NCBI GenBank assembly: GCA_964057225.1
Contig: OZ059897.1
Coordinates: 17,484,001 to 17,548,000 of the forward strand
Reading direction: 5' to 3'
From: Auanema rhodensis
Lineage: Eukaryota; Animalia; Nematoda
Length of the DNA stretch: 64,000 bases
A model generated the notes under the pieces. That model was not told the origin of the DNA. It saw only the letters and a program-made list of their open reading frames with translations, and searched no databases. A program made the position numbers and the translations under genes. Below, piece after piece: positions 552 to 23,100 of this stretch. Each line of letters starts with the position of its first letter. Position 1 is the first letter of the stretch.

Positions 552-1409
552 ATGGATGATTTTTACATTACTCTTCCATCATCAGTTGACTCTGAAAAAA
601 GTAATACATCATCAGTGTTTCTTACCAGATTACCTGAAACACTAAGGCTACGCAATAATAGGTATTGTATTGGGCTGACAGACATCATTTTTCCTTGTTC
701 TATATTAAATGTTCAAAAAGATTTATCTTATACACTACGTTTTTCCAATAGAAAATTTATTCTACACTTGCCTAAAGGCAACTATGCAAATGGTGATGAA
801 ATAATACGCGGAATCAATGCTGGAAGAGAATCATTTATCGCCAACAATACAAAGCCTCTTGGAGCTGAGGAAGAAGCACGTATAAAAAGTTTAATAGATA
901 AAGATGAAGATGTAAAAAAATGGTATAATAATCGCCAGGCTGAGGCTAAGCTAGTGGAGGAAATGCTCGCAGATGCCACATTTCAGTTTAACAAAACATT
1001 GCAGCGCATAGAGTTTGTAACAAGCAAGCGACTATTAATGAATGCAACGCTTGGTGATGATTTTGCATATTTTCTTGGTTTTGAAAATAAAAACATCAAC
1101 GATACAATAATAGCCAGGCGTCCCATTGATTTTTCAAATAACATTAATACAATGTATATATATTGTGATATTGTAGAATATTCCATTCTTGGTAATGTGA
1201 AAGCTAATTTACTTGCATGTTTACCTGTACCACCTCCTACTGAATTTGGTAAAATGATTGCCAAAACATTTAATCCTATTCGTTATGTACCAATCACTAG
1301 ACAAACACTCGATACCATACGTATTGAAATTTTAGATGAATTTGGTCGTCCTATGCAATTTAATTATGGTTCTACAGTTGTTACATTGCATGTTAAAAAT
1401 ATGAAATAA
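552..1409 (+). CDS. Minor capsid protein (penton, single jelly-roll)
   Basis: 285 aa. N-terminal FYITLPS...FLTRLPETLRL...IGLTDIIFP and C-terminal YIYCDIVE...YVPI...IRIEILDEFGRPMQF...VVTLH are typical of Polinton minor capsid proteins; context agrees. Confidence 0.88.
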   Translation: MDDFYITLPSSVDSEKSNTSSVFLTRLPETLRLRNNRYCIGLTDIIFPCSILNVQKDLSYTLRFSNRKFILHLPKGNYANGDEIIRGINAGRESFIANNTKPLGAEEEARIKSLIDKDEDVKKWYNNRQAEAKLVEEMLADATFQFNKTLQRIEFVTSKRLLMNATLGDDFAYFLGFENKNINDTIIARRPIDFSNNINTMYIYCDIVEYSILGNVKANLLACLPVPPPTEFGKMIAKTFNPIRYVPITRQTLDTIRIEILDEFGRPMQFNYGSTVVTLHVKNMK

Positions 1410-1419
1410 ACGTTTTATT
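1404..1419. terminator. Overlapping back-to-back polyadenylation signals of convergent genes
   Basis: AATAAA-CGT-TTTATT gives AATAAA on both strands, each overlapping the stop codon of one convergent gene. The stops at 1409 and 1415 are 5 bp apart. Confidence 0.55.
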
Positions 1420-1879
1420 CAACAGTTATACAATACCACATTTTTATTTTCGAAGGTTTAAAAGATAGTTTAGGGCAGTTTTGTTTGTCGCTCGGCTCGT
1501 GTTGTGAATGTTCTCCGTCACTATTGCTGCGGCATCTTTTTGATTGGGTTGAATGTACAAACTCCTCAGCTTTTTCAAAGGGTTTGCTGGTATCATTTCC
1601 ATCACCATCTTCACCATTCGTTCCATTATTATTATGAATACGCCGAATATGACGCTCACAATTGAATCTTGTTCCAAAAGTTTCACTACAATGAGGGCAC
1701 AAACGTCTACGAACACCATCCAAATGTCCATATTTTTGAATAAAGTCAGCATTGCTGATATAATTGTTACATATGGGTTGAATCCCTGCATGTCTTTTCA
1801 AAACGTGATCACTAAAATGCTTGGTTGAAGAAAATATTTCCTTGCATGTACCACAATATTTGTTACATAAAAGTTCCAT
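1415..1879 (-). CDS. C2H2 zinc-finger protein (two fingers)
   Basis: First ATG at 1879. CGTCKEIFSSTKHFSDHVLKRH and CPHCSETFGTRFNCERHIRRIH fit C-x2-C-x3-F-x8-H-x4-H; a low-complexity polar tail follows. Confidence 0.8.
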   Translation of the reverse strand: MELLCNKYCGTCKEIFSSTKHFSDHVLKRHAGIQPICNNYISNADFIQKYGHLDGVRRRLCPHCSETFGTRFNCERHIRRIHNNNGTNGEDGDGNDTSKPFEKAEEFVHSTQSKRCRSNSDGEHSQHEPSDKQNCPKLSFKPSKIKMWYCITVE

Positions 1880-2132: not shown

Positions 2133-2588
2133 TTATATAGTAGCCAATTTATAGTCGAATACTTTATGCATAAACGCTTTAATAAAGACATCATCATTTT
2201 TCAATAGTTTAAAAAATGAACAAATGCTTTCAAATGAATTACCAGCCGACAACATTAGTATTACAAATACCACGTAGCCACCACAAGTGTATTCAATTAT
2301 ACGTTGTGGTTTGCAAGTATTAATTTTTACCTTTTTATATTTGGCCAGATAATTTTGAATGTACTTGTTCATTTTATATCCCAAGCTACAGAAAAAATAG
2401 GCTTGCTTGTTACGGACAAAGATGACCTGCCAATGTGTGCCTGGCTTATCATGTGTGTCAGTATTTACGACAAGTGCAAAGTTTTTACGACGCGTTTTGG
2501 GTAGAGTATCAGCGCTATATACACCGAGGAATAGTTTCCGAGTGCTGGGTACAGATTGCAATAGTGATACTATTTCAGACGAATACAT
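2133..2588 (-). CDS. Adenain-like (clan CE) capsid maturation cysteine protease
   Basis: ATG at 2588, 151 aa. FLGVYSADTLP...LVVNTDTHDKPGTHW (His), PQ (oxyanion Gln), TCGGY (Cys). Confidence 0.92.
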   Translation of the reverse strand: MYSSEIVSLLQSVPSTRKLFLGVYSADTLPKTRRKNFALVVNTDTHDKPGTHWQVIFVRNKQAYFFCSLGYKMNKYIQNYLAKYKKVKINTCKPQRIIEYTCGGYVVFVILMLSAGNSFESICSFFKLLKNDDVFIKAFMHKVFDYKLATI

Positions 2589-2639: not shown

Positions 2640-3092
2640 ATGCCACACCTCCTTTTGGATGTCAACTCTATTCAATGGACAACACTTTTAAATCAACAAA
2701 TGGGTGGCGCCCCATTTAGCGGAATGATGTTTCAACGTGGAATGCAGAGGGGTCATGGTTTGGGTGGTATTTTGGCAACTTTGGCATCATTTCTACCACG
2801 CATCATTCAATCACCTATAGCCCAAAATCTCATCAATGCCGGAAGAAACGTCTTATCCAGTGCTGTAAGCAATAGTCCAGTTGTAAATTCACCTCTTGGC
2901 GGACAGTTGCTGAAAACTGGTAATGAAATTGTCGATGGGGTGCTGAAAGGCGATAATATCAAGGAAACTCTTAAAACAGCCGGCCGACAAGCTATACGAG
3001 ATCTTACCGGTTTGGGCAAACGGCGACGACGCAAAACCACAAAACCTCATAAGCGGTTGTGCATCACTCGTGAGCGGTCGTTTCACATTTAA
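2640..3092 (+). CDS. Basic core/membrane-active virion precursor (pVII/pX-like Polinton protein)
   Basis: ATG at 2640, 150 aa. FSG...QRGHGLGGILATLASFLP amphipathic segment, Gly-rich protease-site-like motifs, Arg/Lys-rich tail GKRRRRKTTKPHKR; directly upstream of the major capsid gene. Confidence 0.75.
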   Translation: MPHLLLDVNSIQWTTLLNQQMGGAPFSGMMFQRGMQRGHGLGGILATLASFLPRIIQSPIAQNLINAGRNVLSSAVSNSPVVNSPLGGQLLKTGNEIVDGVLKGDNIKETLKTAGRQAIRDLTGLGKRRRRKTTKPHKRLCITRERSFHI

Positions 3093-4427
3093 ATGGCTAA
3101 ATTGATAGATTCAAAATCAGCACAAGCCCTTTTACCTAATATCAACTATGGTGAAATACCTGCGTCGGCATTAGGTGTTGAATCCACTCGTACTGTACAA
3201 GTCCCTTTGAAAAATACTTTTCTTCCTCAAGGACCATGGGAATTTGTTATAGCTCAAAATTCCAAATCATTCCTCAATCTGAGAAGATGTTGGTTGAATG
3301 TAAAATTTAAAATTGTAACCACAAACGGTGATCCAGTACCAGACAACCTTGTTTTTGCACCATGTCAACAATTTGCTGCCAGTTTAATACATTCGTATCA
3401 TTTGAAAATTGGCGATGTTAGCGTGTATGACTCTACCGTGAATCATGCCTATAAAACATATATCGAGAATATTTTAATGTATAGCAACGATGTTAAAGAG
3501 AGCAAACTTGCCATATCAGGCTATTATGCTGATAGATATATAGATAATGCATCCAGTGCTGGATTTAGAACGCGTCAAACGCTTGTAAAAAATGGCATAT
3601 TGTGTGAGATGGCTGCTCCCGTCAGTATCGACCTATTTAATCAAGAGCGACTGTTTGTAAACTATTCAAAAATGGAGCTAACTGCATATCCAAACCGTGA
3701 TAACTTTTTAATTGACACTCTAGGCTGGAATAATGAAAACAAGGATACTACATTAAAGGAGGAGTTTCCAAATTTGAAAGTAGATATCAGCGATGTACAT
3801 TTGCTCATTCAAGAGTTTGATCTAAACGCTGGATTAGCTATGGCTATAGAAGATAAACTCGCAAAGGATCGAATACACTACCCCATGACATCAGTGAAAA
3901 TGCGCTCTTATTTCATAGAAGGAGGCCGCTTGGATTCACCTAATAATATATTATTCACGTCTCATACACCGAAACGTGTTGTAGTAGGTCTTGTTGGCGC
4001 ACACGCTTATAATGGTACTTTTAAACATTCGCCATTCAACTTTAAACCGTTTGATTTGAAAAATATATACTTGACGCTCAACAATAGGGTAATACCTACC
4101 CGTCCTTATAATTTAGAATGGCGATCTTCCTATGCCACAGCATATATTGACATGCTCGAAGGTTTGGGACTTGGTCGTACAGATTCATCCAATGGTATTA
4201 CACCAGCAATGTATAAAGCTGGTTTCACATTTTTTGTATTTGATATTTCTCCTACTGTGCATTCGTCAGAGTTATTTGATGTTATACGACAAGGTAATGT
4301 AGCCTTGAAACTGGAATTTGGTCAACAAACGCCGCAAGAGGGCTTATATGCAATTGTTTATGCAGAGTATGACTCTATTCTTTCAATTGACAACAATCGT
4401 GCTCCATATATTGATACCAGTTTGTAA
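3093..4427 (+). CDS. Major capsid protein (double jelly-roll, hexon-like)
   Basis: 444 aa, intronless. Motifs PKRVVVGLV...AYNG...SPFNFKPFDL, GFTFFVFDISP, GNVALKLEF, IVYAEYDSILSID are typical of Polinton MCP. Confidence 0.92.
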   Translation: MAKLIDSKSAQALLPNINYGEIPASALGVESTRTVQVPLKNTFLPQGPWEFVIAQNSKSFLNLRRCWLNVKFKIVTTNGDPVPDNLVFAPCQQFAASLIHSYHLKIGDVSVYDSTVNHAYKTYIENILMYSNDVKESKLAISGYYADRYIDNASSAGFRTRQTLVKNGILCEMAAPVSIDLFNQERLFVNYSKMELTAYPNRDNFLIDTLGWNNENKDTTLKEEFPNLKVDISDVHLLIQEFDLNAGLAMAIEDKLAKDRIHYPMTSVKMRSYFIEGGRLDSPNNILFTSHTPKRVVVGLVGAHAYNGTFKHSPFNFKPFDLKNIYLTLNNRVIPTRPYNLEWRSSYATAYIDMLEGLGLGRTDSSNGITPAMYKAGFTFFVFDISPTVHSSELFDVIRQGNVALKLEFGQQTPQEGLYAIVYAEYDSILSIDNNRAPYIDTSL

Positions 4428-4562
4428 TGTATGTAATAAATTCTTTAAAAGATTTAAGAATAAAATTTATTAATACAACTATTTTTAAAAATATACATGT
4501 ACAATGATAAAATTTTATAAATACAAATATATACAAGATAAAAATTTATAAATTCAAATATA
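4428..4562. terminator. AT-rich convergent 3' region with polyadenylation signals on both strands
   Basis: AATAAA at ~4435 and ~4458 (+) and TTTATT at ~4466 (AATAAA on -), between the MCP and PolB stop codons. Confidence 0.5.
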
Positions 4563-7500
4563 TTAAACACAATAACCGTAGGGTAAAGTACTATAATCTT
4601 GTAGATAACAAAGTTTATCCATTACGACTCTAGTACTTTTTGTCATATCCATTGTGGATATGGCACCGAGTTGCCTCTTTAACAAGGTTGTGTTGGTTTT
4701 TAAAACCAATTTCTCTCCATCCATAACGAGACCGCGAACCAGTCGCTCCATACTTTCAAAGTTTACCACTGACGCTGCCGTGTGGTCCAACGTCTGTAAA
4801 TTATAAAATTATTTGAAAAGTCAAAGCTCGTACTTACCACTCCCTTTGCCTTTGTTACATATTTTACATCACCAGCTGCATTTACAAGTTTATAACTATA
4901 AACTTTTGCCGCTGGTGACACAAACTTGGTCATTGACCAACCATCGGGTATTTCAGAGGTTAGTTTACCTAACCATTCACCCTTCATATCCTCAATTGGA
5001 TCTGGCTCATCCAGGCACCTTTGATAAATTAGTGAATCCGTGTCTAAATAATGTAAGTTTAAATTGAATACAAAGTATAACATTACCTGTATACACCAAA
5101 TTCTTTCCAATTTTCTCCATTGCCTTATACAATAGTAGCCTTGCATGAGCGGTTGTATAGGCCGCAATAGCTACATTTGTAAAAGGCGGTGGTGCCAAAT
5201 GTGAATCCTCTGGTACTGTTGTGCAGTACGCAACATTATCCACAATTTTGAACCCAGTGAGTTCCCTTGCAGGATCAGTAATGATCCTACCAATTTCTGG
5301 GTCCTCAACACCAATAATCTTGGTTTGGGCTTTATCAGGTCTTTGACCCATTTTACCCCAGACACTATAAGCAAATTTGTAATGTATTGTTTTAAAAAGT
5401 TTACAAACCTATTTAGCTGCAGTTTGGCAATGCTACGCATGGCAGCATTCTTCTCAATTTTATTGCTCTCCAGAGCAACACCAGTGTTCTCCTCGTGCTC
5501 TTGGAGATAAATCACCTGTAAAATTCTATTTAATGTGATACTTTTGTTAAAACATACCTTTTCTTCCTCTGTCATGTTTGGCTTTGGCCAGCCCGACGCC
5601 TCTTGTTTAATTTTGATGTACTTTTGTACAAACTCTTTAAACAGGCCGCCTTGTTGCCATTCTTCCCAGTGCCACACCTCATGCACATGAAGCACTTTAT
5701 AGCCACGTTGTATGGCACACTCGAGCTCAACATGTGTCACGGTTAGATGCAGCTTTCTAGCATTTACATCATTCTGGTGCTCACATGTTACATTTTTACT
5801 TTTGACTGCACAAGTGCGGCAGTTTGTAAAAATAAGTTTACCGCCAATACGTGTGCCTAATACAGGGTACAGCAAATTTGTGGGTGCAAGCACGTCACAT
5901 TTTACTAGCCCCTTGTATGGGCAACATGTCTCAAAGCTTTTGAAACCCTCAGTAATAACTTTGGGATTACCTACAGGGTAATAGGCATCAAAGGCTGTGA
6001 CATATGGATATAGTGAACAAAAGTCCACATACTCGAGCGAGTATCTATCCGAAGCTTGTGCCAAAAGCTTATATGTCTGGGTGCGGCCACCGGTAAAGGC
6101 ATCTCTAGGTGCCAAGCGTGTAACAACATTTGTTTCGCGCATAAATTTCGCCATTTCTTCATTGGCCGAAATTTGAGCATTAATTTCGTGCTCCCACACT
6201 GTGGTAACACTAATGCCTTGGCTTTGAATTGCTTCAAGCCTTTTCATGGTTTTATCATAAACCTAAATTTTAAAAGTTAAAATGATTAAAAAAGTCACAA
6301 TTACCTCTTCCATTGTTTCACCATTTCTGCCTGGTGCTATAGCGCTCTTGTTGGTGCACTGGGGGCAACCATGGTAAATGCAACCATTAATCTACAAAAA
6401 TTTGAATTTTTTACATTTATCACAAATTACTCACCTCATAGCCATGATTGGCAACGGGGTCATAAGCATCGAGTAGATAGCGATGACCATCTACTCTCAC
6501 TGCAAATTCACCACCATTAAGCTTATGCATTAATGGGCGGCCCAGTCCTTGTTCTAGCCATTTTATATACTTTATGGCTATTATACTCTGCTTTTGACCG
6601 GCATAATAACCAGTCTCGGGCAGAATACCCACTTGGTTCTCTTTAATATGATTCATTTTCAGCTGTAATATACTAGTTTTGAAAATGCTTGTATTTGAAA
6701 AAACTTGCCTGGAATAAAGAGAAACTGGCAAATGTCATACACTGTATGACAGGGTTCCAGCCAGTGGTGGCGGTTGCCAACTTCATGTAAACTTTCATAC
6801 AGTTGGTTAAAATACGGACATCTGTCCTACAATATTCCAAAAGCTCTTCATCAAAATCAAACGCTCTTTGATTACGCTCTTCATACCAAATATTGAATGA
6901 AGCTAGGTCTTCTGCTTTCATTCTAGCAGTACAATAGTACTGTTTTGGTGGTAAAGATGGTAACACTTTGCCATAATTTATTGGATGGTTAAAGAGGTAA
7001 GGAAACTGTCCTTTACTCATATCAGGTACACCAAATGCCTTGGGTAACGCTGATAGGGGTAAAGGCACTAATAAATAACTATCTTTAAAATATAAATGAT
7101 TAAATTTTTGACCTCTTAAAGGCTTGACAACCATGCTTATAATCTTGGTCCCATTTAAAATTGGATCAGGATATATACCACGGTTTATCAGCCTAGACAC
7201 CAAGAAATGTATGTCAAAGCGTGAACCATTATGCGCAATCAAAATTGCATTATCATTCTCAACAGAGTTGAGTAACCAATCAAGGAAACGATCTGTTACA
7301 GACCATTCACTATCACCTTGTTGATACCCAAAATGGCCCTCCTTGGTTGTGCATTTTTCACATGAGTTGGCATCTATACAACTTTCACAAAATTTATTAT
7401 ACACAACCATATTGGGCCATTGTTCATCTGCATATTCATGAACATTTGTACCGCTTTTTAACACAACCGTTTCAAAGTCATAGAATATAATCTTAAACAA

Positions 7501-9770
7501 GTAAGCATTACACTTGTAAAGATGTAAAATACAAACCTTGTATTTTTCTTGCCTCTTTTTTAACTGATCCTTCTTCTTGTCGTTAGGTGGTACCCAACAA
7601 CAAGAATGATCTTCAGGCTTTGTTTGTCCACACTTTTTGCAAAATTTCTCATTGCAATTGTGCGGTCTATCTGCACGCACCCTGTGATAATGATCACAGT
7701 TTTCACATGTCTGAATTTAGTCTTGTAAAATTTTATATATATTTTTTAAATTACCTTAAACATTCGACATGTTTTTCTAATATGCCTGTCAAAGCATTGA
7801 CGAGTTTTAAACAAAACTCTACAACTATCACATCTTATGCTACTTTCAACCACATTTTCCATCGAATTACATTTTAAGGTGTGGCATTTCTTACACTTGG
7901 CTTTACATCTATGCAACACTGTTTTGTAAGATAATTTACAGTGTTGGCATATAATACCATCAAAAATCTGTGATCTACTACAAGTTGTAATACAGTCATA
8001 ATGATTATTTCGGTAGCCTAGTGTTACCACTTTGCTAGCCGTTTCATTAAAGATACGCTGAATAGCGTACATACGCTGTCCAGGTGGCCTAGCGTATACC
8101 ACAAACTTATAGTCTGTATTACAACTTGCAATAATATTTAAATGGTTCAAATTATAATTTGGTAAATGTACAGAAATACCACACCTATTCAATAAATTGA
8201 TATGATGTGGTTGATTTGGCAACAAGATGTAGTTGCGACGAAGATTTTGAATCCTCCGCTTCTCAACAACATCTTCTGCTGCCTCTTCATCGGCTCTCCA
8301 CATTCCCACAACTGCTGCTCTAGCCAGGCAATGTGTATCAGTGTTCTCAATTGTGCCAGGTATTTTGAGTTCGGCATCAAAATAGAAACCAACTCTACCT
8401 TCACCAGGCATCAGGCTTGGCTGCACTGGTCTCTCATCAAACACATACATTTCAATATTCATTGCCTGGCTAATTACAGCCTCTCGCTTTGACTGCTGCA
8501 CCTTGCTGATGGCATTCATGATGGCAACGCCATCCAAATGCTCCCTTCTACGGAAATCCATAAATATGGATCCCTTTTCAAAGGATGGGTGCTCTATTGA
8601 TAAACAAAATAGTGCTTTTTGTTTATCTGGCACACCACTTTCAGCAAGGCACCGATCAAGAAACTCATTAAATAACCGCGGCATGACAACATGCATTGGC
8701 TCATTAATGGCTTCCAAATGTGGGAACGTGAGCGATCTAACGACCACGTTGGTGAACCGACCAGTGCGTTTTATGCGTCGGTGTGACCACTATAATACAC
8801 ACTTTTTATAATGGTTATACGCTTTTAGTTTAAATATAAATAATTTTTGTTTATAACTTTTTATAAATTTACTTTTCTTTAAATTATTTTTATTAATGTT
8901 TAAAAATAAATGGCATTTGATTTTTAAATATAAAGTTTTTTTTTTTCAACTTTGAAAAAACTTTTATAAACATTTGTTAATGTTAAAAAATAAATGAAAA
9001 GGTCAAGATTGTGTTTTATTATTTTACTAGTTCAAAATGTTTGAAATATTTATAATTTGTAAGAATTCAAAATTGGTTGAAAGAAAGATAGATGAGGAAA
9101 GATAGATAGATAGTGAGATGAAATGTAAAGATTTTAAAATGAATGCTGTTCAAAAGAATGAATATGTAAATTTCAAAATACTTGCAATTTGCTTGATAAA
9201 AGATATAGATTGAGATGAAATGTAAAGATGAGAGAGAGAGCAATTGAAAAAGAGAAATAAATTTCAAAATGTTTTCAAAATATGCAACTGGAGCAAGAGA
9301 AAATTTCATGTTTCAAAAGATATATTATGAAATGATATGTAAATAAAAGATCGCACCTCTATTTTACAGACATCGTTGAATGCCGCTCCATATCCGACTT
9401 GTCCTCCACTGGTTGATGGGGTAGCAGGATCCCATTCGCTTAAAAAGAAAAAAAACTAAATGTTATAATTTTAATATCGCTTACTCATCACTGTCATCCA
9501 AGGTTATTACTTCAATAACCCTTGATGATGAGGGCCCACTGTTAAAAGTGGGTGATGTGGGCTCACAGAGCTCGATCCCACCAGCCTCGGTAAACTTTAT
9601 ACGTTTACTAAAAAACAAAATATATATAAAGATTCAAAATATTGTTAAATTACCTGAGCTGATTGATTTCTTCATAATCAAATCCTAGCTCTTCACATAA
9701 ACGTTTATAACTAAAAAAAGAAAAAGTTTACAAACAAATAATCAAAAAGACACAACCTATTAGCAGCCAT
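4563..9770 (-). CDS. polB: Protein-primed family B DNA polymerase polyprotein (terminal protein-like, vOTU-like, Zn-finger, exonuclease, VSR-like insert, polymerase); 14 exons, 1369 aa
   Basis: Exons (minus): 9770-9757, 9710-9654, 9607-9485, 9438-9357, 8789-7755, 7710-7537, 7491-6709, 6662-6435, 6391-6305, 6262-5558, 5515-5409, 5364-5087, 5043-4838, 4793-4563. They total 4110 nt and all phases are consistent. ExoI YDFET, ExoII AHNGSRFD, ExoIII YCRTDV, motif A DFCSLYP. Splicing restores motif B KLQLNS/VWGK, motif C YT/DTDS and KAKGV/TLD. The four 5'-most exons are less certain than the core. Confidence 0.93.
6663..6708 (-). other. GC-AG spliceosomal intron (46 nt) in polB
   Basis: Donor CAG|GCAAGT, acceptor TTACAG|CTG. 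Removal joins ...FASFSLFQ to LKMNHIKENQ... in frame. Confidence 0.8.
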
Positions 9771-10169
9771 TGTACCTTGATATAATGAATACATCAGTCT
9801 ACACATTGCTGTTGGCATTGTAATTTGTTATGTAACATGGATTTGGGTACAGCTGTCAAAACTAGCAGTTGCGATAAACTTTAAAATAAATAAGCTTATT
9901 GAATACATCTGTTTTTATTGTCCCCGTCGGATTAATTTTTGTTATTAGTTCTTATTAAATTAACTTTATGCGTTTCATTGAGGTCAGCGCAACTGTTTGT
10001 TAATCTTATTGTATTTACCTTCATTGTGTGCTCTATAGAGTTATTGTATTGTTATATTAGTAAAATAAAGTTTAAAACTAATCTTTTATTATAATTTGAA
10101 ACCTTTACTTGTTAGAATAAATATAATTAATAACAATTTGTAATTTCAAAAATTAATAATTTAATGTCA

Positions 10170-10321
10170 TTCTTATCGAATTAACCTTCGATATGTGTTC
10201 CATTGAATTTTGGTATTTCATATCGTTCTTATCGAATTAACTTTCGATATGTGTTCCATTAAATTTTGGTATTTCATATCGTTCTTATCGAATTAACTTT
10301 CGATATGTGTTCCATTGAATT
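10170..10321. repeat. 56-bp tandem repeat, ~2.7 copies, each with a TATCGAA-N6-TTCGATA dyad
   Basis: Units start at 10170, 10226 and 10282 and are near-identical. Confidence 0.92.
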
Positions 10322-10391
10322 ACCCATAACAAGTACGGTGAACAAAATTATCTACATGCAAAAATTTTATTGATCTTTAAAAATACAAATC

Positions 10392-10943
10392 AAGTAAACA
10401 AACATTATTAATAAATATAATAAAGAAATAAAGAAATAAATAAAATTTAAAAACAAATTTATATATTTAAAATTTAAATATTATTTATATATAAAATTTA
10501 AAGTTTAAATATAATTTATATATATAAAATTTAAATATAATTTAAATATTTAAAGTTTAAATAAAATTTATATATATATATATAAAATTTAAATATAATT
10601 TAAATATTTAAAATTAAGATTTTTATTTTTACTTAATATATTTAAAAATAATTGAAAATATATACATACATTTGAAAAAGCATATTTAAATAAAATTAAC
10701 AAAATAAGTAAACAAACATTATTAATAAATATAATAAATAAATAAATAAAATGTATAAACAAATTTACATATTTAAATATAATTTATATATATAAAATTT
10801 AAATATAATTTAAATATATAAAGTTTAAATATAATTTATATATATATAAAATTTAAATATAATTTAAATATTTAAAATTAAGATTTTTATTTTTACTTAA
10901 TATATTTAAAAATAATTAAAAATATATACATACATTTGAAAAA
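10392..10943. repeat. Extremely AT-rich imperfect direct duplication
   Basis: AAGTAAACAAACATTATTAATAAATATAATAAA starts at 10392 and 10706. Both copies end in ...AAGATTTTTATTTTTACTTAATATATTTAAAAATAATT(G/A)AAAATATATACATACATTTGAAAAA (~10679, ~10943). Confidence 0.85.
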
Positions 10944-11029
10944 ACAAATTTAAAATTTGATTTAAAAAAAAATCATGCTTTAAATCATGATTTTTAAATT
11001 TAAAAAAGGAAAATCCATGAACCATGATC

Positions 11030-11152
11030 CCAAAATATGATTTTAACAGCTGACGCTCAAAAATATGTTTTTGACAGCTGACGCGCCCCAAAAGTATGTT
11101 TTTAGCAGCTGACGCCCCCAAAAGTATGTTTTTGACAGCTGTTTGGGGGCGT
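11030..11152. repeat. Subterminal ~30-bp repeats (4 copies) with CAGCTG core, probably part of the terminal inverted repeat
   Basis: CAAAA(G)TATGTTTTTGACAGCTGACGC(CCC)-like unit; CAGCTG at 11047, 11075, 11106, 11136. Confidence 0.88.
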
Positions 11153-11181
11153 GGTTAGTAAATTTTGCACGGCTCTCTACT
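11153..11181 (-). repeat. Outer tip of Maverick terminal inverted repeat (5'-AGTAGAGAGCCGTGC...)
   Basis: AG-initiated AGT/AG short-repeat terminus exactly where unique sequence ends. The partner TIR is outside the window, so TIR length cannot be determined. Confidence 0.75.
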
Positions 11182-14100
11182 AACATTGCTTCCAAAAACA
11201 TTTTGACAAAAATTTTTTCGAAAAATTTCAAGATAATTTAGCAAAAAGTAGATGTTTTTAGATTCCTTTTTTCAAGGCAAAGACGATGGACAATGTTATT
11301 CAACGAAAAAATTAATTCTTCAGGGTGAAAATCGAGGATATAAGTGTGAACTTATATCAGTTGATATCTCGGTGCATTTTTAAGCTAGCGCAAATCTGAT
11401 AACACAGATCGACGCAGCTTAAAAATCCGCATCGAATGCACTATACTACATTGAGAAACGCTTGATACAAAAATTAGTTCTGATCGTTTGAAAAATGATG
11501 CATTAGTGTATGTTGAGTTTCCATGTACACTCAACATTGCTTCCAAAAACATTTTGACAAAAATTTTTTCGAAAAATTTCAAAATAATTTAGCAAAAAGT
11601 AGATGTTTTTAGATTCCTTTTTTCAAGGCAAAGACGATGGACAATGTTATTCAACGAAAAAATTTATTCTTCAGGGTGAAAATCGAGGATATAAGTGTGA
11701 ACTTATATCAGTTGATATCTCGGTGCATTTTTAAGCTAGCGCAAATCTGATAACACAGATCGACGCAGCTTAAAAATCCGCATCGAATGCACTATACTAC
11801 ATTGAGAAACGCTTAATACAAAAATTAGTTATGATCGTTTGAAAAATGATGCATTAGTGTATGTTGAGTTTCCATGTACACTCAACATTGCTTCCAAAAA
11901 CATTTTGACAAAAATTTTTTCGAAAAATTTCAAAATAATTTAGCAAAAAGTAGATGTTTTTAGATTCCTTTTTTCAAGGCAAAGACGATGGACAATGTTA
12001 TTCAACGAAAAAAACAATTCTTCAGGGTGAAAATCGAGGATATAAGTGTGAACTTATATCAGTTGATATATCGGTGCATTTTTAAGCTAGCGCAAATCTG
12101 ATAACACAGATCGACGCAGCTTAAAAATCCGCATCGAATGCACTATACTACATTGAGAAACGCTTGATACAAAAATTAGTTCTGATCGTTTGAAAAATGA
12201 TGCATTAGTGTATGTTGAGTTTCCATGTACACTCAACATTGCTTCCAAAAACATTTTGACAAAAATTTTTTCGAAAAATTTCAAGATAATTTAGCAAAAA
12301 GTAGATGTTTTTAGATTCCTTTTTTCAAGGCAAAGACGATGGACAATGTTATTCAACGAAAAAATTAATTCTTCAGGGTGAAAATCGAGGATATAAGTGT
12401 GAACTTATATCAGTTGATATCTCGGTGCATTTTTAAGCTAGCGCAAATCTGATAACACAGATCGACGTAGCTTAAAAATCCGCATCGAATGCACTATACT
12501 ACATTGAGAAACGCTTAATACAAAAATTAGTTATGATCGTTTGAAAAATGATGCATTAGTGTATGTTGAGTTTCCATGTACACTCAACATTGCTTCCAAA
12601 AACATTTTGACAAAAATTTTTTCGAAAAATTTCAAAATAATTTAGCAAAAAGTAGATGTTTTTAGATTCCTTTTTTCAAGGCAAAGACGATGGACAATGT
12701 TATTCAACGAAAAAAACAATTCTTCAGGGTGAAAATCGAGGATTAAAGTGTGAACTTATATCAGTTGATATATCGGTGCATTTTTAAGCTAGCGCAAATC
12801 TGATAACACAGATCGACGCAGCTTAAAAATCCGCATCGAATGCACTATACTACATTGAGAAACGCTTGATACAAAAATTAGTTCTGATCGTTTGAAAAAT
12901 GATGCATTAGTGTATGTTGAGTTTCCATGTACACTCAACATTGCTTCCAAAAACATTTTGACAAAAATTTTTTCGAAAAATTTCAAGATAATTTAGCAAA
13001 AAGTAGATGTTTTTAGATTCCTTTTTTCAAGGCAAAGACGATGGACAATGTTATTCAACGAAAAAATTAATTCTTCAGGGTGAAAATCGAGGATATAAGT
13101 GTGAACTTATATCAGTTGATATCTCGGTGCATTTTTAAGCTAGCGCAAATCTGATAACACAGATCGACGTAGCTTAAAAATCCGCATCGAATGCACTATA
13201 CTACATTGAGAAACGCTTAATACAAAAATTAGTTATGATCGTTTGAAAAATGATGCATTAGTGTATGTTGAGTTTCCATGTACACTCAACATTGCTTCCA
13301 AAAACATTTTGACAAAAATTTTTTCGAAAAATTTCAAAATAATTTAGCAAAAAGTAGATGTTTTTAGATTCCTTTTTTCAAGGCAAAGACGATGGACAAT
13401 GTTATTCAACGAAAAAATTTATTCTTCAGGGTGAAAATCGAGGATATAAGTGTGAACTTATATCAGTTGATATATCGGTGCATTTTTAAGCTAGCGCAAA
13501 TCTGATAACACAGATCGACGCAGCTTAAAAATCCGCATCGAATGCACTATACTACATTGAGAAACGCTTGATACAAAAATTAGTTCTGATCGTTTGAAAA
13601 ATGATGCATTAGTGTATGTTGAGTTTCCATGTACACTCAACATTGCTTCCAAAAACATTTTGACAAAAATTTTTTCGAAAAATTTCAAAATAATTTAGCA
13701 AAAAGTAGATGTTTTTAGATTCCTTTTTTCAAGGCAAAGACGATGGACAATGTTATTCAACGAAAAAATTTATTCTTCAGGGTGAAAATCGAGGATATAA
13801 GTGTGAACTTATATCAGTTGATATATCGGTGCATTTTTAAGCTAGCGCAAATCTGATAACACAGATCGACGCAGCTTAAAAATCCGCATCGAATGCACTA
13901 TACTACATTGAGAAACGCTTAATACAAAAATTAGTTATGATCGTTTGAAAAATGATGCATTAGTGTATGTTGAGTTTCCATGTACACTCAACATTGCTTC
14001 CAAAAACATTTTGACAAAACTTTTTTCGAAAAATTTCAAGATAATTTAGCAAAAAGTAGATGTTTTTAGATTCCTTTTTTCAAGGCAAAGACGATGGACA

Positions 14101-17100
14101 ATGTTATTCAACGAAAAAAACAATTCTTCAGGGTGAAAATCGAGGATATAAGTGTGAACTTATATCAGTTGATATATCGGTGCATTTTTAAGCTAGCGCA
14201 AATCTGATAACACAGATCGACGCAGCTTAAAAATCTGCATCGAATGCACTATACTACATTGAGAAACGCTTAATACAAAAATTAGTTATGATCGTTTGAA
14301 AAATGATTCATTAGTGTATGTTGAGTTTCCATGTACACTCAACATTGCTTCCAAAAACATTTTGACAAAACTTTTTTCGAAAAATTTCAAGATAATTTAG
14401 CAAAAAGTAGATGTTTTTAGATTCCTTTTTTCAAGGCAAAGACGATGGACAATGTTATTCAACGAAAAAATTAATTCTCCAGGGTGAAAATCGAGGATAT
14501 AAGTGTGAACTTATATCAGTTGATATCTCGGTGCATTTTTAAGCTAGCGCAAATCTGATAACACAGATCGACGCAGCTTAAAAATCCGCATCGAATGCAC
14601 TATACTACATTGAGAAACGCTTAATACAAAAATTAGTTATGATCGTTTGAAAAATGATGCATTAGTGTATGTTGAGTTTCCATGTACACTCAACATTGCT
14701 TCCAAAAACATTTTGACAAAAATTTTTTCGAAAAATTTCAAGATAATTTAGCAAAAAGTAGATGTTTTTAGATTCCTTTTTTCAAGGCAAAGACGATGGA
14801 CAATGTTATTCAACGAAAAAATTAATTCTTCAGGGTGAAAATCGAGGATATAAGTGTGAACTTATATCAGTTGATATCTCGGTGCATTTTTAAGCTAGCG
14901 CAAATCTGATAACACAGATCGACGCAGCTTAAAAATCCGCATCGAATGCACTATACTACATTGAGAAACGCTTAATACAAAAATTAGTTATAATCGTTTG
15001 AAAAATGATGCATTAGTGTATGTTGAGTTTCCATGTACACTCAACATTGCTTCCAAAAACATTTTGACAAAAATTTTTTCGAAAAATTTCAAGATAATTT
15101 AGCGAAAAGTAGATGTTTTTAGATTCCTTTTTTCAAGGCAAAGACGATGGACAATGTTATTCAACGAAAAAATTTATTCTTCAGGGTGAAAATCGAGGAT
15201 ATAAGTGTGAACTTATATCAGTTGATATCTCGGTGCATTTTTAAGCTAGCGCAAATCTGATAACACAGATCGACGCAGCTTAAAAATCCGCATCGAATGC
15301 ACTATACTACATTGAGAAACGCTTAGTACAAAAATTAGTTATGATCGTTTGAAAAATGATGCATTAGTGTATGTTGAGTTTCCATGTACACTCAACATTG
15401 CTTCCAAAAACATTTTGACAAAAATTTTTTCGAAAAATTTCAAGATAATTTAGCAAAAAGTAGATGTTTTTAGATTCCTTTTTTCAAGGCAAAGACGATG
15501 GACAATGTTATTCAACGAAAAAATTAATTCTTCAGGGTGAAAATCGAGGATATAAGTGTGAACTTATATCAGTTGATATCTCGGTGCATTTTTAAGCTAG
15601 CGCAAGTCTGATAACACAGATCGACGCAGCTTAAAAATCCGCATCGAATGCACTATACTACATTGAGAAACGCTTAATACAAAAATTAGTTATGATCGTT
15701 TGAAAAATGATGCATTAGTGTATGTTGAGTTTCCATGTACACTCAACATTGCTTCCAAAAACATTTTGACAAAAATTTTTTCGAAAAATTTCAAGATAAT
15801 TTAGCAAAAAGTAGATGTTTTTAGATTCCTTTTTTCAAGGCAAAGACGATGGACAATGTTATTCAACGAAAAAATTAATTCTTCAGGGTGAAAATCGAGG
15901 ATATAAGTGTGAACTTATATCAGTTGATATCTCGGTGCATTTTTAAGCTAGCGCAAGTCTGATAACACAGATCGACGCAGCTTAAAAATCCGCATCGAAT
16001 GCACTATACTACATTGAGAAACGCTTAATACAAAAATTAGTTATGATCGTTTGAAAAATGATGCATTAGTGTATGTTGAGTTTCCATGTACACTCAACAT
16101 TGCTTCCAAAAACATTTTGACAAAACTTTTTTCGAAAAATTTCAAGATAATTTAGCAAAAAGTAGATGTTTTTAGATTCCTTTTTTCAAGGCAAAGACGA
16201 TGGACAATGTTATTCAACGAAAAAATTAATTCTTCAGGGTGAAAATCGAGGATATAAGTGTGAACTTATATCAGTTGATATCTCGGTGCATTTTTAAGCT
16301 AGCGCAAGTCTGATAACACAGATCGACGCAGCTTAAAAATCCGCATCGAATGCACTATACTACATTGAGAAACGCTTGATACAAAAATTAGTTATGATCG
16401 TTTGAAAAATGATGCATTAGTGTATGTTGAGTTTCCATGTACACTCAACATTGCTTCCAAAAACATTTTGACAAAACTTTTTTCGAAAAATTTCAAGATA
16501 ATTTAGCAAAAAGTAGATGTTTTTAGATTCCTTTTTTCAAGGCAAAGACGATGGACAATGTTATTCAACGAAAAAAACAATTCTTCAGGGTGAAAATCGA
16601 GGATATAAGTGTGAACTTATATCAGTTGATATATCGGTGCATTTTTAAGCTAGCGCAAATCTGATAACACAGATCGACGCAGCTTAAAAATCTGCATCGA
16701 ATGCACTATACTACATTGAGAAACGCTTAATACAAAAATTAGTTATGATCGTTTGAAAAATGATTCATTAGTGTATGTTGAGTTTCCATGTACACTCAAC
16801 ATTGCTTCCAAAAACATTTTGACAAAACTTTTTTCGAAAAATTTCAAGATAATTTAGCAAAAAGTAGATGTTTTTAGATTCCTTTTTTCAAGGCAAAGAC
16901 GATGGACAATGTTATTCAACGAAAAAATTAATTCTCCAGGGTGAAAATCGAGGATATAAGTGTGAACTTATATCAGTTGATATCTCGGTGCATTTTTAAG
17001 CTAGCGCAAATCTGATAACACAGATCGACGCAGCTTAAAAATCCGCATCGAATGCACTATACTACATTGAGAAACGCTTAATACAAAAATTAGTTATGAT

Positions 17101-20100
17101 CGTTTGAAAAATGATGCATTAGTGTATGTTGAGTTTCCATGTACACTCAACATTGCTTCCAAAAACATTTTGACAAAAATTTTTTCGAAAAATTTCAAGA
17201 TAATTTAGCAAAAAGTAGATGTTTTTAGATTCCTTTTTTCAAGGCAAAGACGATGGACAATGTTATTCAACGAAAAAATTAATTCTTCAGGGTGAAAATC
17301 GAGGATATAAGTGTGAACTTATATCAGTTGATATCTCGGTGCATTTTTAAGCTAGCGCAAATCTGATAACACAGATCGACGCAGCTTAAAAATCCGCATC
17401 GAATGCACTATACTACATTGAGAAACGCTTAATACAAAAATTAGTTATGATCGTTTGAAAAATGATGCATTAGTGTATGTTGAGTTTCCATGTACACTCA
17501 ACATTGCTTCCAAAAACATTTTGACAAAAATTTTTTCGAAAAATTTCAAGATAATTTAGCAAAAAGTAGATGTTTTTAGATTCCTTTTTTCAAGGCAAAG
17601 ACGATGGACAATGTTATTCAACGAAAAAATTAATTCTTCAGGGTGAAAATCGAGGATATAAGTGTGAACTTATATCAGTTGATATCTCGGTGCATTTTTA
17701 AGCTAGCGCAAATCTGATAACACAGATCGACGCAGCTTAAAAATCCGCATCGAATGCACTATACTACATTGAGAAACGCTTAATACAAAAATTAGTTATG
17801 ATCGTTTGAAAAATGATGCATTAGTGTATGTTGAGTTTCCATGTACACTCAACATTGCTTCCAAAAACATTTTGACAAAAATTTTTTCGAAAAATTTCAA
17901 GATAATTTAGCAAAAAGTAGATGTTTTTAGATTCCTTTTTTCAAGGCAAAGACGATGGACAATGTTATTCAACGAAAAAATTAATTCTTCAGGGTGAAAA
18001 TCGAGGATATAAGTGTGAACTTATATCAGTTGATATCTCGGTGCATTTTTAAGCTAGCGCAAATCTGATAACACAGATCGACGCAGCTTAAAAATCCGCA
18101 TCGAATGCACTATACTACATTGAGAAACGCTTAATACAAAAATTAGTTATAATCGTTTGAAAAATGATGCATTAGTGTATGTTGAGTTTCCATGTACACT
18201 CAACATTGCTTCCAAAAACATTTTGACAAAAATTTTTTCGAAAAATTTCAAGATAATTTAGCGAAAAGTAGATGTTTTTAGATTCCTTTTTTCAAGGCAA
18301 AGACGATGGACAATGTTATTCAACGAAAAAAGTAATTCTTCAGGGTGAAAATCGAGGATATAAGTGTGAACTTATATCAGTTGATATCTCGGTGCATTTT
18401 TAAGCTAGCGCAAATCTGATAAAACAGATCGACGCAGCTTAAAAATCCGCATCGAATGCACTATACTACATTGAGAAACGCTTAATACAAAAATTAGTTA
18501 TGATCGTTTGAAAAATGATGCATTAGTGTATGTTGAGTTTCCATGTACACTCAACATTGCTTCCAAAAACATTTTGACAAAAATTTTTTCGAAAAATTTC
18601 AAAATAATTTAGCAAAAAGTAGATGTTTTTAGATTCCTTTTTTCAAAGCAAAGACGATGGACAATGTTATTCAACGAAAAAATTTATTCTTCAGGGTGAA
18701 AATCGAGGATATAAGTGTGAACTTATATCAGTTGATATCTCGGTGCATTTTTAAGCTAGCGCAAATCTGATAACACAGATCGACGCAGCTTAAAAATCCG
18801 CATCGAATGCACTATACTACATTGAGAAACGCTTAATACAAAAATTAGTTATGATCGTTTGAAAAATGATGCATTAGTGTATGTTGAGTTTCCATGTACA
18901 CTCAACATTGCTTCCAAAAACATTTTGACAAAAATTTTTTCGAAAAATTTCAAGATAATTTAGCAAAAAGTAGATGTTTTTAGATTCCTTTTTTCAAGGC
19001 AAAGACGATGGACAATGTTATTCAACGAAAAAATTAATTCTTCAGGGTGAAAATCGAGGATATAAGTGTGAACTTATATCAGTTGATATCTCGGTGCATT
19101 TTTAAGCTAGCGCAAGTCTGATAACACAGATCGACGCAGCTTAAAAATCCGCATCGAATGCACTATACTACATTGAGAAACGCTTAATACAAAAATTAGT
19201 TATGATCGTTTGAAAAATGATGCATTAGTGTATGTTGAGTTTCCATGTACACTCAACATTGCTTCCAAAAACATTTTGACAAAAATTTTTTCGAAAAATT
19301 TCAAGATAATTTAGCAAAAAGTAGATGTTTTTAGATTCCTTTTTTCAAGGCAAAGACGATGGACAATGTTATTCAACGAAAAAATTAATTCTTCAGGGTG
19401 AAAATCGAGGATATAAGTGTGAACTTATATCAGTTGATATCTCGGTGCATTTTTAAGCTAGCGCAAGTCTGATAACACAGATCGACGCAGCTTAAAAATC
19501 CGCATCGAATGCACTATACTACATTGAGAAACGCTTAATACAAAAATTAGTTATGATCGTTTGAAAAATGATTCATTAGTGTATGTTGAGTTTCCATGTA
19601 CACTCAACATTGCTTCCAAAAACATTTTGACAAAACTTTTTTCGAAAAATTTCAAGATAATTTAGCAAAAAGTAGATGTTTTTAGATTCCTTTTTTCAAG
19701 GCAAAGACGATGGACAATGTTATTCAACGAAAAAATTAATTCTTCAGGGTGAAAATCGAGGATATAAGTGTGAACTTATATCAGTTGATATCTCGGTGCA
19801 TTTTTAAGCTAGCGCAAGTCTGATAACACAGATCGACGCAGCTTAAAAATCCGCATCGAATGCACTATACTACATTGAGAAACGCTTGATACAAAAATTA
19901 GTTATGATCGTTTGAAAAATGATGCATTAGTGTATGTTGAGTTTCCATGTACACTCAACATTGCTTCCAAAAACATTTTGACAAAAATTTTTTCGAAAAA
20001 TTTCAAAATAATTTAGCAAAAAGTAGATGTTTTTAGATTCCTTTTTTCAAGGCAAAGACGATGGACAATGTTATTCAACGAAAAAATTTATTCTTCAGGG

Positions 20101-23100
20101 TGAACATCGAGGATATAAGTGTGAACTTATATCAGTTGATATCTCGGTGCATTTTTAAGCTAGCGCAAATCTGATAACACAGATCGACGCAGCTTAAAAA
20201 TCCGCATCGAATGCACTATACTACATTGAGAAACGCTTAATACAAAAATTAGTTATGATCGTTTGAAAAATGATGCATTAGTGTATGTTGAGTTTCCATG
20301 TACACTCAACATTGCTTCCAAAAACATTTTGACAAAAATTTTTTCGAAAAATTTCAAAATATTTTAGCAAAAAGTAGATGTTTTTAGATTCCTTTTTTCA
20401 CGGCAAAGACGATGGACAATGTTATTCAACGAAAAAAACAATTCTTCAGGGTGAAAATCGAGGATATAAGTGTGAACTTATATCAGTTGATATATCGGTG
20501 CATTTTTAAGCTAGCGCAAATCTGATAACACAGATCGACGCAGCTTAAAAATCCGCATCGAATGCACTATACTACATTGAGAAACGCTTAATACAAAAAT
20601 TAGTTATGATCGTTTGAAAAATGATGCATTAGTGTATGTTGAGTTTCCATGTACACTCAACATTGCTTCCAAAAACATTTTGACAAAAATTTTTTCGAAA
20701 AATTTCAAGATAATTTAGCAAAAAGTAGATGTTTTTAGATTCCTTTTTTCAAGGCAAAGACGATGGACAATGTTATTCAACGAAAAAATTAATTCTTCAG
20801 GGTGAAAATCGAGGATATAAGTGTGAACTTATATCAATTGATATCTCGGTGCATTTTTAAGCTAGCGCAAATCTGATAACACAGATCGACGCAGCTTAAA
20901 AATCCGCATCGAATGCACTATACTACATTGAGAAACGCTTAATACAAAAATTAGTTATGATCGTTTGAAAAATGATGCATTAGTGTATGTTGAGTTTCCA
21001 TGTACACTCAACATTGCTTCCAAAAACATTTTGACAAAAATTTTTTCCAAAAATTTCAAGATAATTTAGCGAAAAGTAGATGTTTTTAGATTCCTTTTTT
21101 CAAGGCAAAGACGATGGACAATGTTATTCAACGAAAAAATTAATTCTTCAGGGTGAAAATCGAGGATATAAGTGTGAACTTATATCAGTTGATATCTCGG
21201 TGCATTTTTAAGCTAGCGCAAATCTGATAACACAGATCGACGCAGCTTAAAAATCCGCATCGAATGCACTATACTACATTGAGAAACGCTTAATACAAAA
21301 ATTAGTTATGATCGTTTGAAAAATGATGCATTAGTGTATGTTGAGTTTCCATGTACACTCAACATTGCTTCCAAAAACATTTTGACAAAAATTTTTTCGA
21401 AAAATTTCAAAATAATGTAGCGAAAAGTAGATGTTTTTAGATTCCTTTTTTCAAGGCAAAGACGATGGACAATGTTATTCAACGAAAAAATTTATTCTTC
21501 AGGGTGAAAATCGAGGATATAAGTGTGAACTTATATCAGTTGATATATCGGTGCATTTTTAAGCTAGCGCAAATCTGATAACACAGATCGACGCAGCTTA
21601 AAAATCTGCATCGAATGCACTATACTACATTGAGAAACGCTTAATACAAAAATTAGTTATGATCGTTTGAAAAATGATTCATTAGTGTATGTTGAGTTTC
21701 CATGTACACTCAACATTGCTTCCAAAAACATTTTGACAAAACTTTTTTCGAAAAATTTCAAGATAATTTAGCAAAAAGTAGATGTTTTTAGATTCCTTTT
21801 TTCAAGGCAAAGACGATGGACAATGTTATTCAACGAAAAAATTAATTCTCCAGGGTGAAAATCGAGGATATAAGTGTGAACTTATATCAGTTGATATCTC
21901 GGTGCATTTTTAAGCTAGCGCAAATCTGATAACACAGATCGACGCAGCTTAAAAATCCGCATCGAATGCACTATACTACATTGAGAAACGCTTAATACAA
22001 AAATTAGTTATGATCGTTTGAAAAATGATGCATTAGTGTATGTTGAGTTTCCATGTACACTCAACATTGCTTCCAAAAACATTTTGACAAAAATTTTTTC
22101 GAAAAATTTCAAAATAATTTAGCGAAAAGTAGATGTTTTTAGATTCCTTTTTTCAAGGCAAAGACGATGGACAATGTTATTCAACGAAAAAATTTATTCT
22201 TCAGGGTGAAAATCGAGGATATAAGTGTGAACTTATATCAGTTGATATCTCGGTGCATTTTTAAGCTAGCGCAAATCTGATAACACAGATCGACGCAGCT
22301 TAAAAATCCGCATCGAATGCACTATACTACATTGAGAAACGCTTGATACAAAAATTAGTTCTGATCGTTTGAAAAATGATGCATTAGTGTATGTTGAGTT
22401 TCCATGTACACTCAACATTGCTTCCAAAAACATTTTGACAAAAATTTTTTCGAAAAATTTCAAGATAATTTAGCAAAAAGTAGATGTTTTTAGATTCCTT
22501 TTTTCAAGGCAAAGACGATGGACAATGTTATTCAACGAAAAAATTAATTCTTCAGGGTGAAAATCGAGGATATAAGTGTGAACTTATATCAGTTGATATC
22601 TCGGTGCATTTTTAAGCTAGCGCAAATCTGATAACACAGATCGACGCAGCTTAAAAATCCGCATCGAATGCACTATACTACATTGAGAAACGCTTAATAC
22701 AAAAATTAGTTATGATCGTTTGAAAAATGATGCATTAGTGTATGTTGAGTTTCCATGTACACTCAACATTGCTTCCAAAAACATTTTGACAAAAATTTTT
22801 TCGAAAAATTTCAAAATAATTTAGCAAAAAGTAGATGTTTTTAGATTCCTTTTTTCAAGGCAAAGACGATGGACAATGTTATTCAACGAAAAAATTTATT
22901 CTTCAGGGTGAAAATTGAGGATATAAGTGTGAACTTATATCAGTTGATATATTGGTGCATTTTTAAGCTAGCGCAAATCTGATAACACAGATCGACGCAG
23001 CTTAAAAATCCGCATCGAATGCACTATACTACATTGAGAAACGCCTAATACAAAAATTAGTTATGATCGTTTGAAAAATGATGCATTAGTGTATGTTGAG

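What the first reader, a model, noticed from the sequence alone, without database searches (positions are those of the whole stretch)
11150..11200. Intact-looking Maverick virus-like element joined precisely to a 351-bp satellite monomer: possible satellite-targeted integration
Seen: the element tip ...CTCTCTACT (11181) is followed with no filler by AACATTGCTTCC. In every other monomer this sequence is preceded by GTACACTC, and the first monomer shows no decay. Known: Polinton retroviral-like integrases make ~6-bp target-site duplications. Inference: this is a recent clean integration into the array with TSD AACATT. If other copies use the same satellite or monomer position, this would be a polintovirus that uses satellite heterochromatin as a safe harbour. 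One junction cannot show targeting.
Basis: partly seen in the sequence, partly recalled or inferred. Interest (0 to 1): 0.85.

Follow-up and report, generated by a model that had tools for sequence, protein, structure and literature searches.

The report
Polinton end abutting a nematode satellite
A virus-like Polinton transposon, whose polymerase gene is predicted to be split by eight or nine tiny introns, ends cleanly against a 351-base satellite array, most likely as one recent chance insertion into very abundant repeat DNA rather than by targeting it.

Summary
The junction is real in the window. Bases 1-11181 are the right ~11 kb of a Polinton/Maverick (ATPase, penton, protease, double jelly-roll capsid, pPolB); 11182-64000 is 150.5 copies of a 351-bp satellite. 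The first monomer is ordinary and 150 of 150 internal monomer starts follow GTACACTC. But 'joined precisely to a monomer' carries no information, because the junction itself sets the monomer phase, and the target-site duplication cannot be tested: the far end and the integrase lie outside the window. Targeting is not supported. The satellite is 60-3300 times deeper than the tip, so a chance hit is plausible. Best reading: a recent integrase insertion into abundant, weakly selected repeat DNA of a nematode. The more unusual trait is a pPolB that stays open across 8-9 predicted 42-46 nt introns, where published core Maverick genes are intronless.

The parts
1..472 (-). Packaging ATPase (A32/FtsK-like), cut by the window edge
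   Evidence: ORF; Walker A GATQCGKT in the translation; Pfam ATPase_2 E=1e-4 and Pox_A32 E=0.03, both below curated cut-offs
552..1409 (+). Minor capsid (penton) protein, 285 aa
   Evidence: Model pLDDT 83.7; best fold match mavirus penton E=5.6e-9, then adenovirus penton bases; best named relative Auanema sp., 47%
1415..1879 (-). C2H2 zinc-finger protein, 154 aa
   Evidence: Pfam zf-C2H2_4 E=4.4e-5, below cut-off
2133..2588 (-). Adenain-like cysteine maturation protease, 151 aa
   Evidence: Pfam Peptidase_C5 E=8.9e-4, 19.4 bits against cut-off 21.3
2640..3092 (+). Basic, Gly-rich 150-aa protein; likely virion core protein with xGG protease sites (inferred, motif recalled)
   Evidence: Translation; no family hit
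3093..4427 (+). Major capsid protein, double jelly-roll, 444 aa, no predicted introns
   Evidence: Model pLDDT 73; matches iridovirus, PBCV-1, Sputnik and mavirus MCPs, E 2e-15 to 5e-14; relatives of 441-463 aa at 49-73%
4563..8696 (-). Protein-primed DNA polymerase B with a VSR-like GCxxHGC insert, split by 8 predicted introns of 42-46 nt plus one in-frame 45-nt candidate
   Evidence: Pfam DNA_pol_B_2 E=1e-23 and 3e-16, above cut-off; collinear with residues 66-1264 of a 1351-aa Caenorhabditis protein; 0 stops in 9 exons read one by one, 1261 codons; Exo I-III, Pol A and B motifs found, Pol C split by an intron
9309..9830 (-). Small predicted spliced gene (3 predicted 46-nt introns; ends approximate); one exon holds a SUMO-interaction-like motif followed by acidic residues (label recalled)
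   Evidence: no family hit for that exon
10159..11181 (.). AT-rich non-coding end with 56-bp and 30-bp subrepeats; putative right terminal inverted repeat (length unknown without the far end)
   Evidence: 80-96 nt stretches are carried by contigs with 0 differences in 4 of 4 runs (table 8)
11173..11181 (.). Element terminus, (CT)3 followed by ACT
   Evidence: published end motifs are (ACT)2 or (CT)3; a deep contig in run X5 matches to 11181 with 0 differences
11182..11187 (+). AACATT, candidate 6-bp target-site duplication (untested)
   Evidence: far end of the element not held
11182..64000 (+). 351-bp satellite array, 150.5 copies, 32% GC, 1.5% mean pairwise difference, no indels, 80 variants, local multi-monomer duplications, 41-bp locally invariant box spanning the junction phase
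   Evidence: no Rfam match to E=1

Best explanation
A Polinton/Maverick ends at base 11181 directly against a 351-bp satellite array, most likely because its integrase recently pasted this one copy into a very abundant repeat without aiming at that sequence. Steps: (shown) the visible 11 kb carry the polintovirus core genes and end in an AG..CT-type terminus; (shown) the first monomer is unaltered; (inferred) a retroviral-type integrase, encoded beyond the window's left edge, joined the tip to a staggered cut, which would leave a 6-bp duplication at the far end; (inferred) the family is multi-copy and recently active, and the satellite is a large target; (inferred) copies in repeat blocks persist because selection there is weak, perhaps because the block is germline-limited as in other rhabditid nematodes; (predicted) the polymerase mRNA is made by host splicing of 8-9 short introns.
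For: Junction falls at a terminus resembling published Maverick ends with 0 strict-register microhomology and no satellite-element similarity better than E=0.08, which fits integrase joining better than recombination or an overlap misjoin. First monomer ordinary. Summed contig depth on the satellite is 60-3333 times that on the tip in 4 of 4 runs (not a copy number). Contigs identical to the terminal region are 30-283 times deeper than a diverged single-looking copy, a rough sign of many near-identical ends. With 15 copies, the chance that at least one lies in a repeat filling 3-10% of the genome is 0.37-0.79 (both inputs assumed). None of 11 joints and 7 gapped joints links the tip to another satellite phase or switches strand, although satellite-internal joints at depth 6-15 were listed. 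Satellite arrays are commonly interrupted by young transposons (7-18% of array space), and repeat-rich eliminated DNA in a rhabditid is enriched in transposon genes (39% against 0.9%).
Against: Far end, TSD and integrase unseen. No shown piece bridges the junction. Short-read contigs drop rare branches, only 24 of 225 loose ends and 32 of 32,267 pieces were shown, and the best run holds 0.66 of the window's words, so the missing joints are weak evidence. The non-satellite flank belongs to a diverged relative and may be one locus. The junction lies in the longest locally invariant run of the monomer (41 bp; 12% of phases). The X5 main tip contig has 3 further letters beyond 11181, so the usual terminus may be longer than this copy's. 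No RNA evidence for the introns; donors were picked by eye before the frame test.
Confidence: 0.65

Rival explanations
1. Regional chromatin targeting: the integrase (possibly through a chromodomain) steers the element into satellite heterochromatin or germline-limited repeat blocks at any phase, like centrophilic retrotransposons.
For: Adintovirus integrases carry a predicted chromodomain thought to bias integration (passage). Tal1 shows chromatin-guided insertion into satellite centromeres (abstract). This copy is young and in an array.
Against: No tip-to-satellite joint at other phases in 4 of 4 runs; relative's tip outside this satellite. Integrase not in the window. Only one 351-bp family was offered as reference, so flanks in other satellites would be missed, which leaves this rival open.
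Confidence: 0.14
2. The junction is secondary: the element inserted earlier, and deletion, unequal exchange or slippage then brought the array against a slightly trimmed tip, or removed the array on the far side.
For: Tip has one ACT where a common published end has two; the deep X5 contig has 3 more letters past 11181; tip and satellite share ACT at a 1-nt offset; the array shows frequent local duplications.
Against: A random break is unlikely to land within 0-3 nt of the terminus of an element over 11 kb long; first monomer unaltered; strict-register microhomology 0.
Confidence: 0.13
3. Sequence- and phase-specific targeting of AACATT in the conserved box of the monomer.
For: Junction lies in a 41-bp run invariant over 150 monomers (42 of 351 phases, P about 0.12).
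Against: Repeated use of this site would give deep strand-switch joints and a tip contig continuing with AA; neither was listed, and the X5 tip contig does not continue with AAC. The site is not unusually palindromic (63 of 351 phases score as high). The box does vary genome-wide at 3 listed places (table 3).
Confidence: 0.04
4. Assembly misjoin between a Polinton end and a satellite contig.
For: No shown contig bridges the junction; both sides are repeats.
Against: No shared sequence on which an overlap could form; no N, no indel in 150 monomers and orderly variant blocks point to accurate long reads (inference).
Confidence: 0.04

Closest known systems
Nematode Polintons/Mavericks (Jeong et al., 10.1101/2023.08.22.554363; Widen et al., 10.1101/2022.07.12.499685)
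   Same: pPolB, ATPase, adenain-like protease, major and minor capsid; pPolB best named hits Caenorhabditis brenneri and C. nigoni at 39-41%, penton best named hit Auanema sp. at 47%; copies mostly at strain-specific positions.
   Different: Core genes were described as intronless; this pPolB has 8-9 predicted introns. Fusogen, integrase and cargo region are not visible here. pPolB1 or pPolB2 class not assigned. No satellite insertion seen in the passages read.
Vertebrate Mavericks (Barreat and Katzourakis, PMC8097293)
   Same: AG..CT-type short-repeat termini; 6-bp TSD expected.
   Different: Ends are (ACT)2 or (CT)3, here (CT)3-ACT; intact elements there have intronless ORFs.
Centrophilic retrotransposons (Tal1, ATHILA; PMC11735389; centromere atlas 10.64898/2026.09.17.752431)
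   Same: Young mobile element with a retroviral-type integrase found in a homogeneous satellite array.
   Different: Their targeting rests on many insertions and de novo mapping; here one junction and no enrichment. The atlas text names neither Maverick nor Polinton (0 occurrences).
Introner-bearing Maverick-Polinton-like proviruses of dinoflagellates (PMC11957031)
   Same: Introns inside full-length Polinton-like elements.
   Different: Here the 11 predicted introns tested are no more alike than shuffles (0.38 against 0.37), so not a recent introner burst, and they are confined to pPolB and one small gene.

Membership tests
Polinton/Maverick (polintovirus) | [quoted passage not shown] | tested here: met
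   Pfam DNA_pol_B_2 above cut-off; motifs per exon; open only if the predicted introns are spliced
Polinton/Maverick (polintovirus) | Double jelly-roll major capsid protein | tested here: met
Polinton/Maverick (polintovirus) | Penton (minor capsid) protein | tested here: met
Polinton/Maverick (polintovirus) | Packaging ATPase and adenain-like protease | tested here: met
   Pfam hits below curated cut-offs but of the expected families and in the expected company
Polinton/Maverick (polintovirus) | Retroviral-type integrase | not testable with these tools
   Left part of the element lies outside the window; no genome held
Polinton/Maverick (polintovirus) | Paired terminal inverted repeats with short-repeat AG..CT ends | tested here: inconclusive
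   One end only; (CT)3-ACT mixes the two published motifs; may be 3 nt shorter than the common end
Polinton/Maverick (polintovirus) | 5-8 bp (usually 6 bp) target-site duplication | not testable with these tools
   Far end absent; no strand-switch joint listed in 4 runs
Polinton/Maverick (polintovirus) | Intronless core genes (descriptive trait in nematode and vertebrate surveys, not a formal criterion) | tested here: not met
   Met for MCP, penton, protease and the visible ATPase (0 candidates each); pPolB has 8-9 predicted introns; no RNA test
Satellite-targeting (centrophilic) element | Copies enriched in the satellite beyond its genome share | tested here: inconclusive
   No further tip-satellite joints in 4 of 14 listed runs; sensitivity unknown; flanks of the identical family not read
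Satellite-targeting (centrophilic) element | Repeated use of one monomer position | tested here: not met
   No strand-switch joint; main X5 tip contig does not continue with AAC; moderate strength
Satellite-targeting (centrophilic) element | Targeting domain on the integrase; de novo insertion bias | not testable with these tools
   Integrase not in the window

The most novel reading that the evidence does not exclude
A nematode polintovirus lineage adapted to germline heterochromatin: its integrase steers it into satellite blocks (possibly DNA that somatic cells eliminate), and its polymerase gene has gained host-type introns that let it be expressed there despite small-RNA silencing.
Probability: 0.1. 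Interest if true: 0.82.

Novelty: new variant of a known kind. Interest (0 to 1): 0.37.

Why it matters
As one chance insertion it is ordinary: young transposons in satellite arrays are common. It still shows that capsid-coding Polintons sit in repeat blocks that short-read assemblies lose. The predicted intron-rich polymerase matters more: ORF-based Polinton surveys would miss or call such elements broken, and it ties virus-type DNA replication to host splicing. If regional targeting proved true, it would add a DNA virus-like element to the centrophilic strategy so far shown for retrotransposons; none of my ten searches listed a paper whose title or abstract start reports that.

Tried and rejected
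No whole genome is held, so the far end could not be fetched. Flank letters of copies identical to this tip were not read, which leaves targeting open at the regional level. Earlier findings of the scan: 0 in 4 look-ups. Related loci by MCP alignment: 3 short metagenome contigs of 1.5-2.7 kb at 25-32%, without element ends or satellites; 0 in viral contigs. No RNA holder listed, which says nothing on expression. The protein atlas did not answer. PHROGs: 0 hits for 6 proteins. Rfam on three monomers: 0, so the repeat is not a known RNA-gene array. Satellite derived from the element: rejected, best blastn E=0.078 in AT-rich words. Palindromic target: rejected. Introner origin of the introns: not supported. 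Intron count alone is not decisive: 8 in pPolB against mean 2.4 but maximum 8 in 200 shuffles; the frame test carries the weight (two alternative donors gave 46 and 52 stops). A published 351-bp nematode satellite was not found (0 occurrences of 351). The host species was not determined and the satellite was not matched to any published family; repeat tables of 10.64898/2026.08.27.747507 are images, and bioRxiv supplements (also the Polinton table of 10.1101/2023.08.22.554363) were not seen and may bear on both novelty claims. Depth sums are not copy numbers; the chance model uses assumed inputs.

Full report
1. Observation. The window has two parts. Bases 11182-64000 are one array of a 351-bp unit, 150.5 copies, 98% matches, no indels. 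Splitting at the 12-mer named in the finding gives 151 starts and 150 complete monomers, all 351 bp, of 80 distinct variants; 150 of 150 internal starts are preceded by TTCCATGTACACTC and the first by the element tip. Mean pairwise difference is 5.4 of 351 bases; the first monomer has 0 private variants and ranks 59 of 150 in distance to the rest. The sequence facts are therefore right. Two glosses are not. A tandem array has no natural start, so any clean cut yields a 'full first monomer'; loose ends in 4 of 4 public runs show that this phase is an ordinary internal position. And the duplication cannot be read from one end.

2. The element. Bases 1-11181 hold an ATPase cut by the window edge, a 285-aa penton (best fold match mavirus penton, E=5.6e-9), a C2H2 protein, an adenain-like protease, a basic 150-aa protein, a 444-aa double jelly-roll capsid and a pPolB, then about 1.3 kb of AT-rich DNA with subrepeats. 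Named relatives are nematode: Caenorhabditis for pPolB (39-41%), Auanema sp. for the penton (47%), Aphelenchus for the capsid (28%); most hits are unnamed. The host is likely a nematode; the species was not determined. Integrase and far TIR lie outside the window and no genome is held.

3. Is it intact? The pPolB is split into several ORFs but aligns collinearly with residues 66-1264 of a 1351-aa relative, with frame changes. At these places lie AT-rich 42-46 nt stretches with GT (once GC) and AG ends. Read exon by exon with the phase carried over, 9 exons have 0 stops and total 1261 codons; the two alternative donors tried give 46 and 52 stops. A ninth, in-frame 45-nt candidate is undecided. 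The same filter finds 0 candidates in the capsid, penton, protease and visible ATPase genes, 3 on the opposite strand of pPolB, and a mean of 2.4 (maximum 8) in 200 shuffles, so the count alone is not decisive. Exo I-III, Pol A and B motifs and the C-terminal PYGY lie in the expected exons; Pol C is split by an intron (motif patterns recalled). Donors were chosen by eye and no RNA run was laid, so the introns are predicted. Core genes are called intronless in Caenorhabditis Mavericks (10.1101/2022.07.12.499685, passages) and vertebrate Mavericks (PMC8097293, passages). Introns in Polinton-like proviruses are known from dinoflagellate introners (PMC11957031, passages), but the 11 introns tested here are no more alike than shuffles. 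Searches listed no paper whose title or abstract start reports an intron-rich nematode pPolB.

4. The junction. The tip reads (CT)3-ACT; published ends are (ACT)2 or (CT)3 with 6-bp duplications (5-8 bp in 10.1101/2023.08.22.554363, passages). Strict-register microhomology is 0, 5 of the last 30 letters match, and the satellite has no real similarity to the element. This fits integrase joining. I read minus-strand records on their own strand, as X5 record 20 against X9 record 27 indicates. Either the usual end is longer than this copy's or many copies share another flank; neither favours AACATT as the common target.

5. Targeting. Fourteen runs were listed, 12 holding the stretch, best share 0.66; 4 of them, from 3 studies, were laid on the tip plus one monomer. 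None of 11 joints or 7 gapped joints joins the tip to another satellite phase or switches strand, as the far end of such an insertion would, although satellite-internal joints at depth 6-15 were kept. A relative with 9-10 differences in 94-117 letters runs 82, 218, 379 and 154 letters beyond its tip without being laid on the monomer, in 4 of 4 runs; this may be one locus. Limits: contigs drop rare branches, 24 of 225 loose ends and 32 of 32,267 pieces were shown, none bridges the window's own junction, and the flank letters of identical copies were not read. Summed depth on the satellite is 60-3333 times that on the tip, and identical terminal contigs are 30-283 times deeper than the diverged copy; these are rough signs of a very abundant satellite and a multi-copy family, not copy numbers. 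With 15 copies and a 3-10% target the chance of at least one hit is 0.37-0.79 (assumed inputs). In favour of a special site: the junction lies in the longest invariant run of the monomer, 41 bp, which covers 12% of phases; the site is not unusually palindromic (63 of 351 phases).

6. Mechanism and rivals. Most likely (0.65) an untargeted recent insertion into abundant repeat DNA, kept because selection there is weak. In Auanema rhodense most of a 61% eliminated germline fraction is 167-504 nt tandem repeats, and transposon genes are enriched there (10.64898/2026.08.27.747507, passages and section 7; its tables are images and were not seen). Whether this array is germline-limited is untested. 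Rivals: regional chromatin targeting (0.14; chromodomain on adintovirus integrases, PMC8502044 passage; Tal1 precedent, PMC11735389 abstract), secondary junction (0.13), phase-specific targeting (0.04), misjoin (0.04). That introns help germline expression in nematodes is recalled, not checked.

7. Known and new. It works like, and on every core gene that could be tested is, a Polinton/Maverick; integrase, paired TIRs and TSD could not be tested. It does not qualify as a satellite-targeting element. Transposons fill 7-18% of satellite centromere arrays across 325 genomes, and that text does not name Mavericks or Polintons (10.64898/2026.09.17.752431, passages). Searches listed no title or abstract start on satellite-targeted Polintons, and none on a 351-bp nematode satellite; the library lacks most subscription journals and bioRxiv supplements were closed. 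Also read as passages, with little bearing: 10.1101/2023.08.22.554363 section 4 part 1 of 3, 10.1101/2024.01.15.575659, PMC12220804, PMC7593179, PMC6431247. Four look-ups in earlier findings returned nothing.

8. Verdict. Observation partly confirmed, interpretation partly supported, targeting unsupported. Novelty: new variant of a known kind, on the strength of the predicted intron-rich polymerase rather than the junction. Interest 0.37; the boldest reading not excluded has probability 0.10 and would deserve 0.82.

Noticed in passing
window 4563-8696 (-): pPolB stays open across 8 predicted 42-46 nt introns (one GC-AG) plus a 45-nt in-frame candidate, while the capsid, penton, protease and visible ATPase genes have no candidates; published core Maverick genes are intronless.
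   Followed up: partly
window ~9309-9830 (-): Small predicted spliced gene beside the terminal region, with a hydrophobic-then-acidic motif like a SUMO-interaction motif (label recalled); possible early regulator.
   Followed up: no
   Followed up: partly
window 11016-11186, run X1 joints: One contig (depth 11) holds tip segments in tandem (joints 11045 to 11121 and 11186 back to 11121): possibly rearranged or nested element ends.
   Followed up: no
window 11182-64000, monomer columns 324-13: A 41-bp run is invariant over 150 monomers (P=0.002 if variable columns were placed at random, but monomers are related); possible protein-binding box.
   Followed up: partly
window 11182-64000: Variant order shows local 2-, 3- and ~10-mer duplications (lowest mean distance at lag 10) without a regular higher-order repeat, and no indel in 150 monomers.
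   Followed up: partly
window 10159-10321, 10420-10954, 11029-11141: 56-bp, AT-rich 58/264-bp and 30-bp subrepeats in the terminal region; the 30-bp units share a CAGCTG core.
   Followed up: no
P0008: A nematode relative of the capsid protein is named 'CBN-RNR-2 protein' by its source, probably a mislabel.
   Followed up: no
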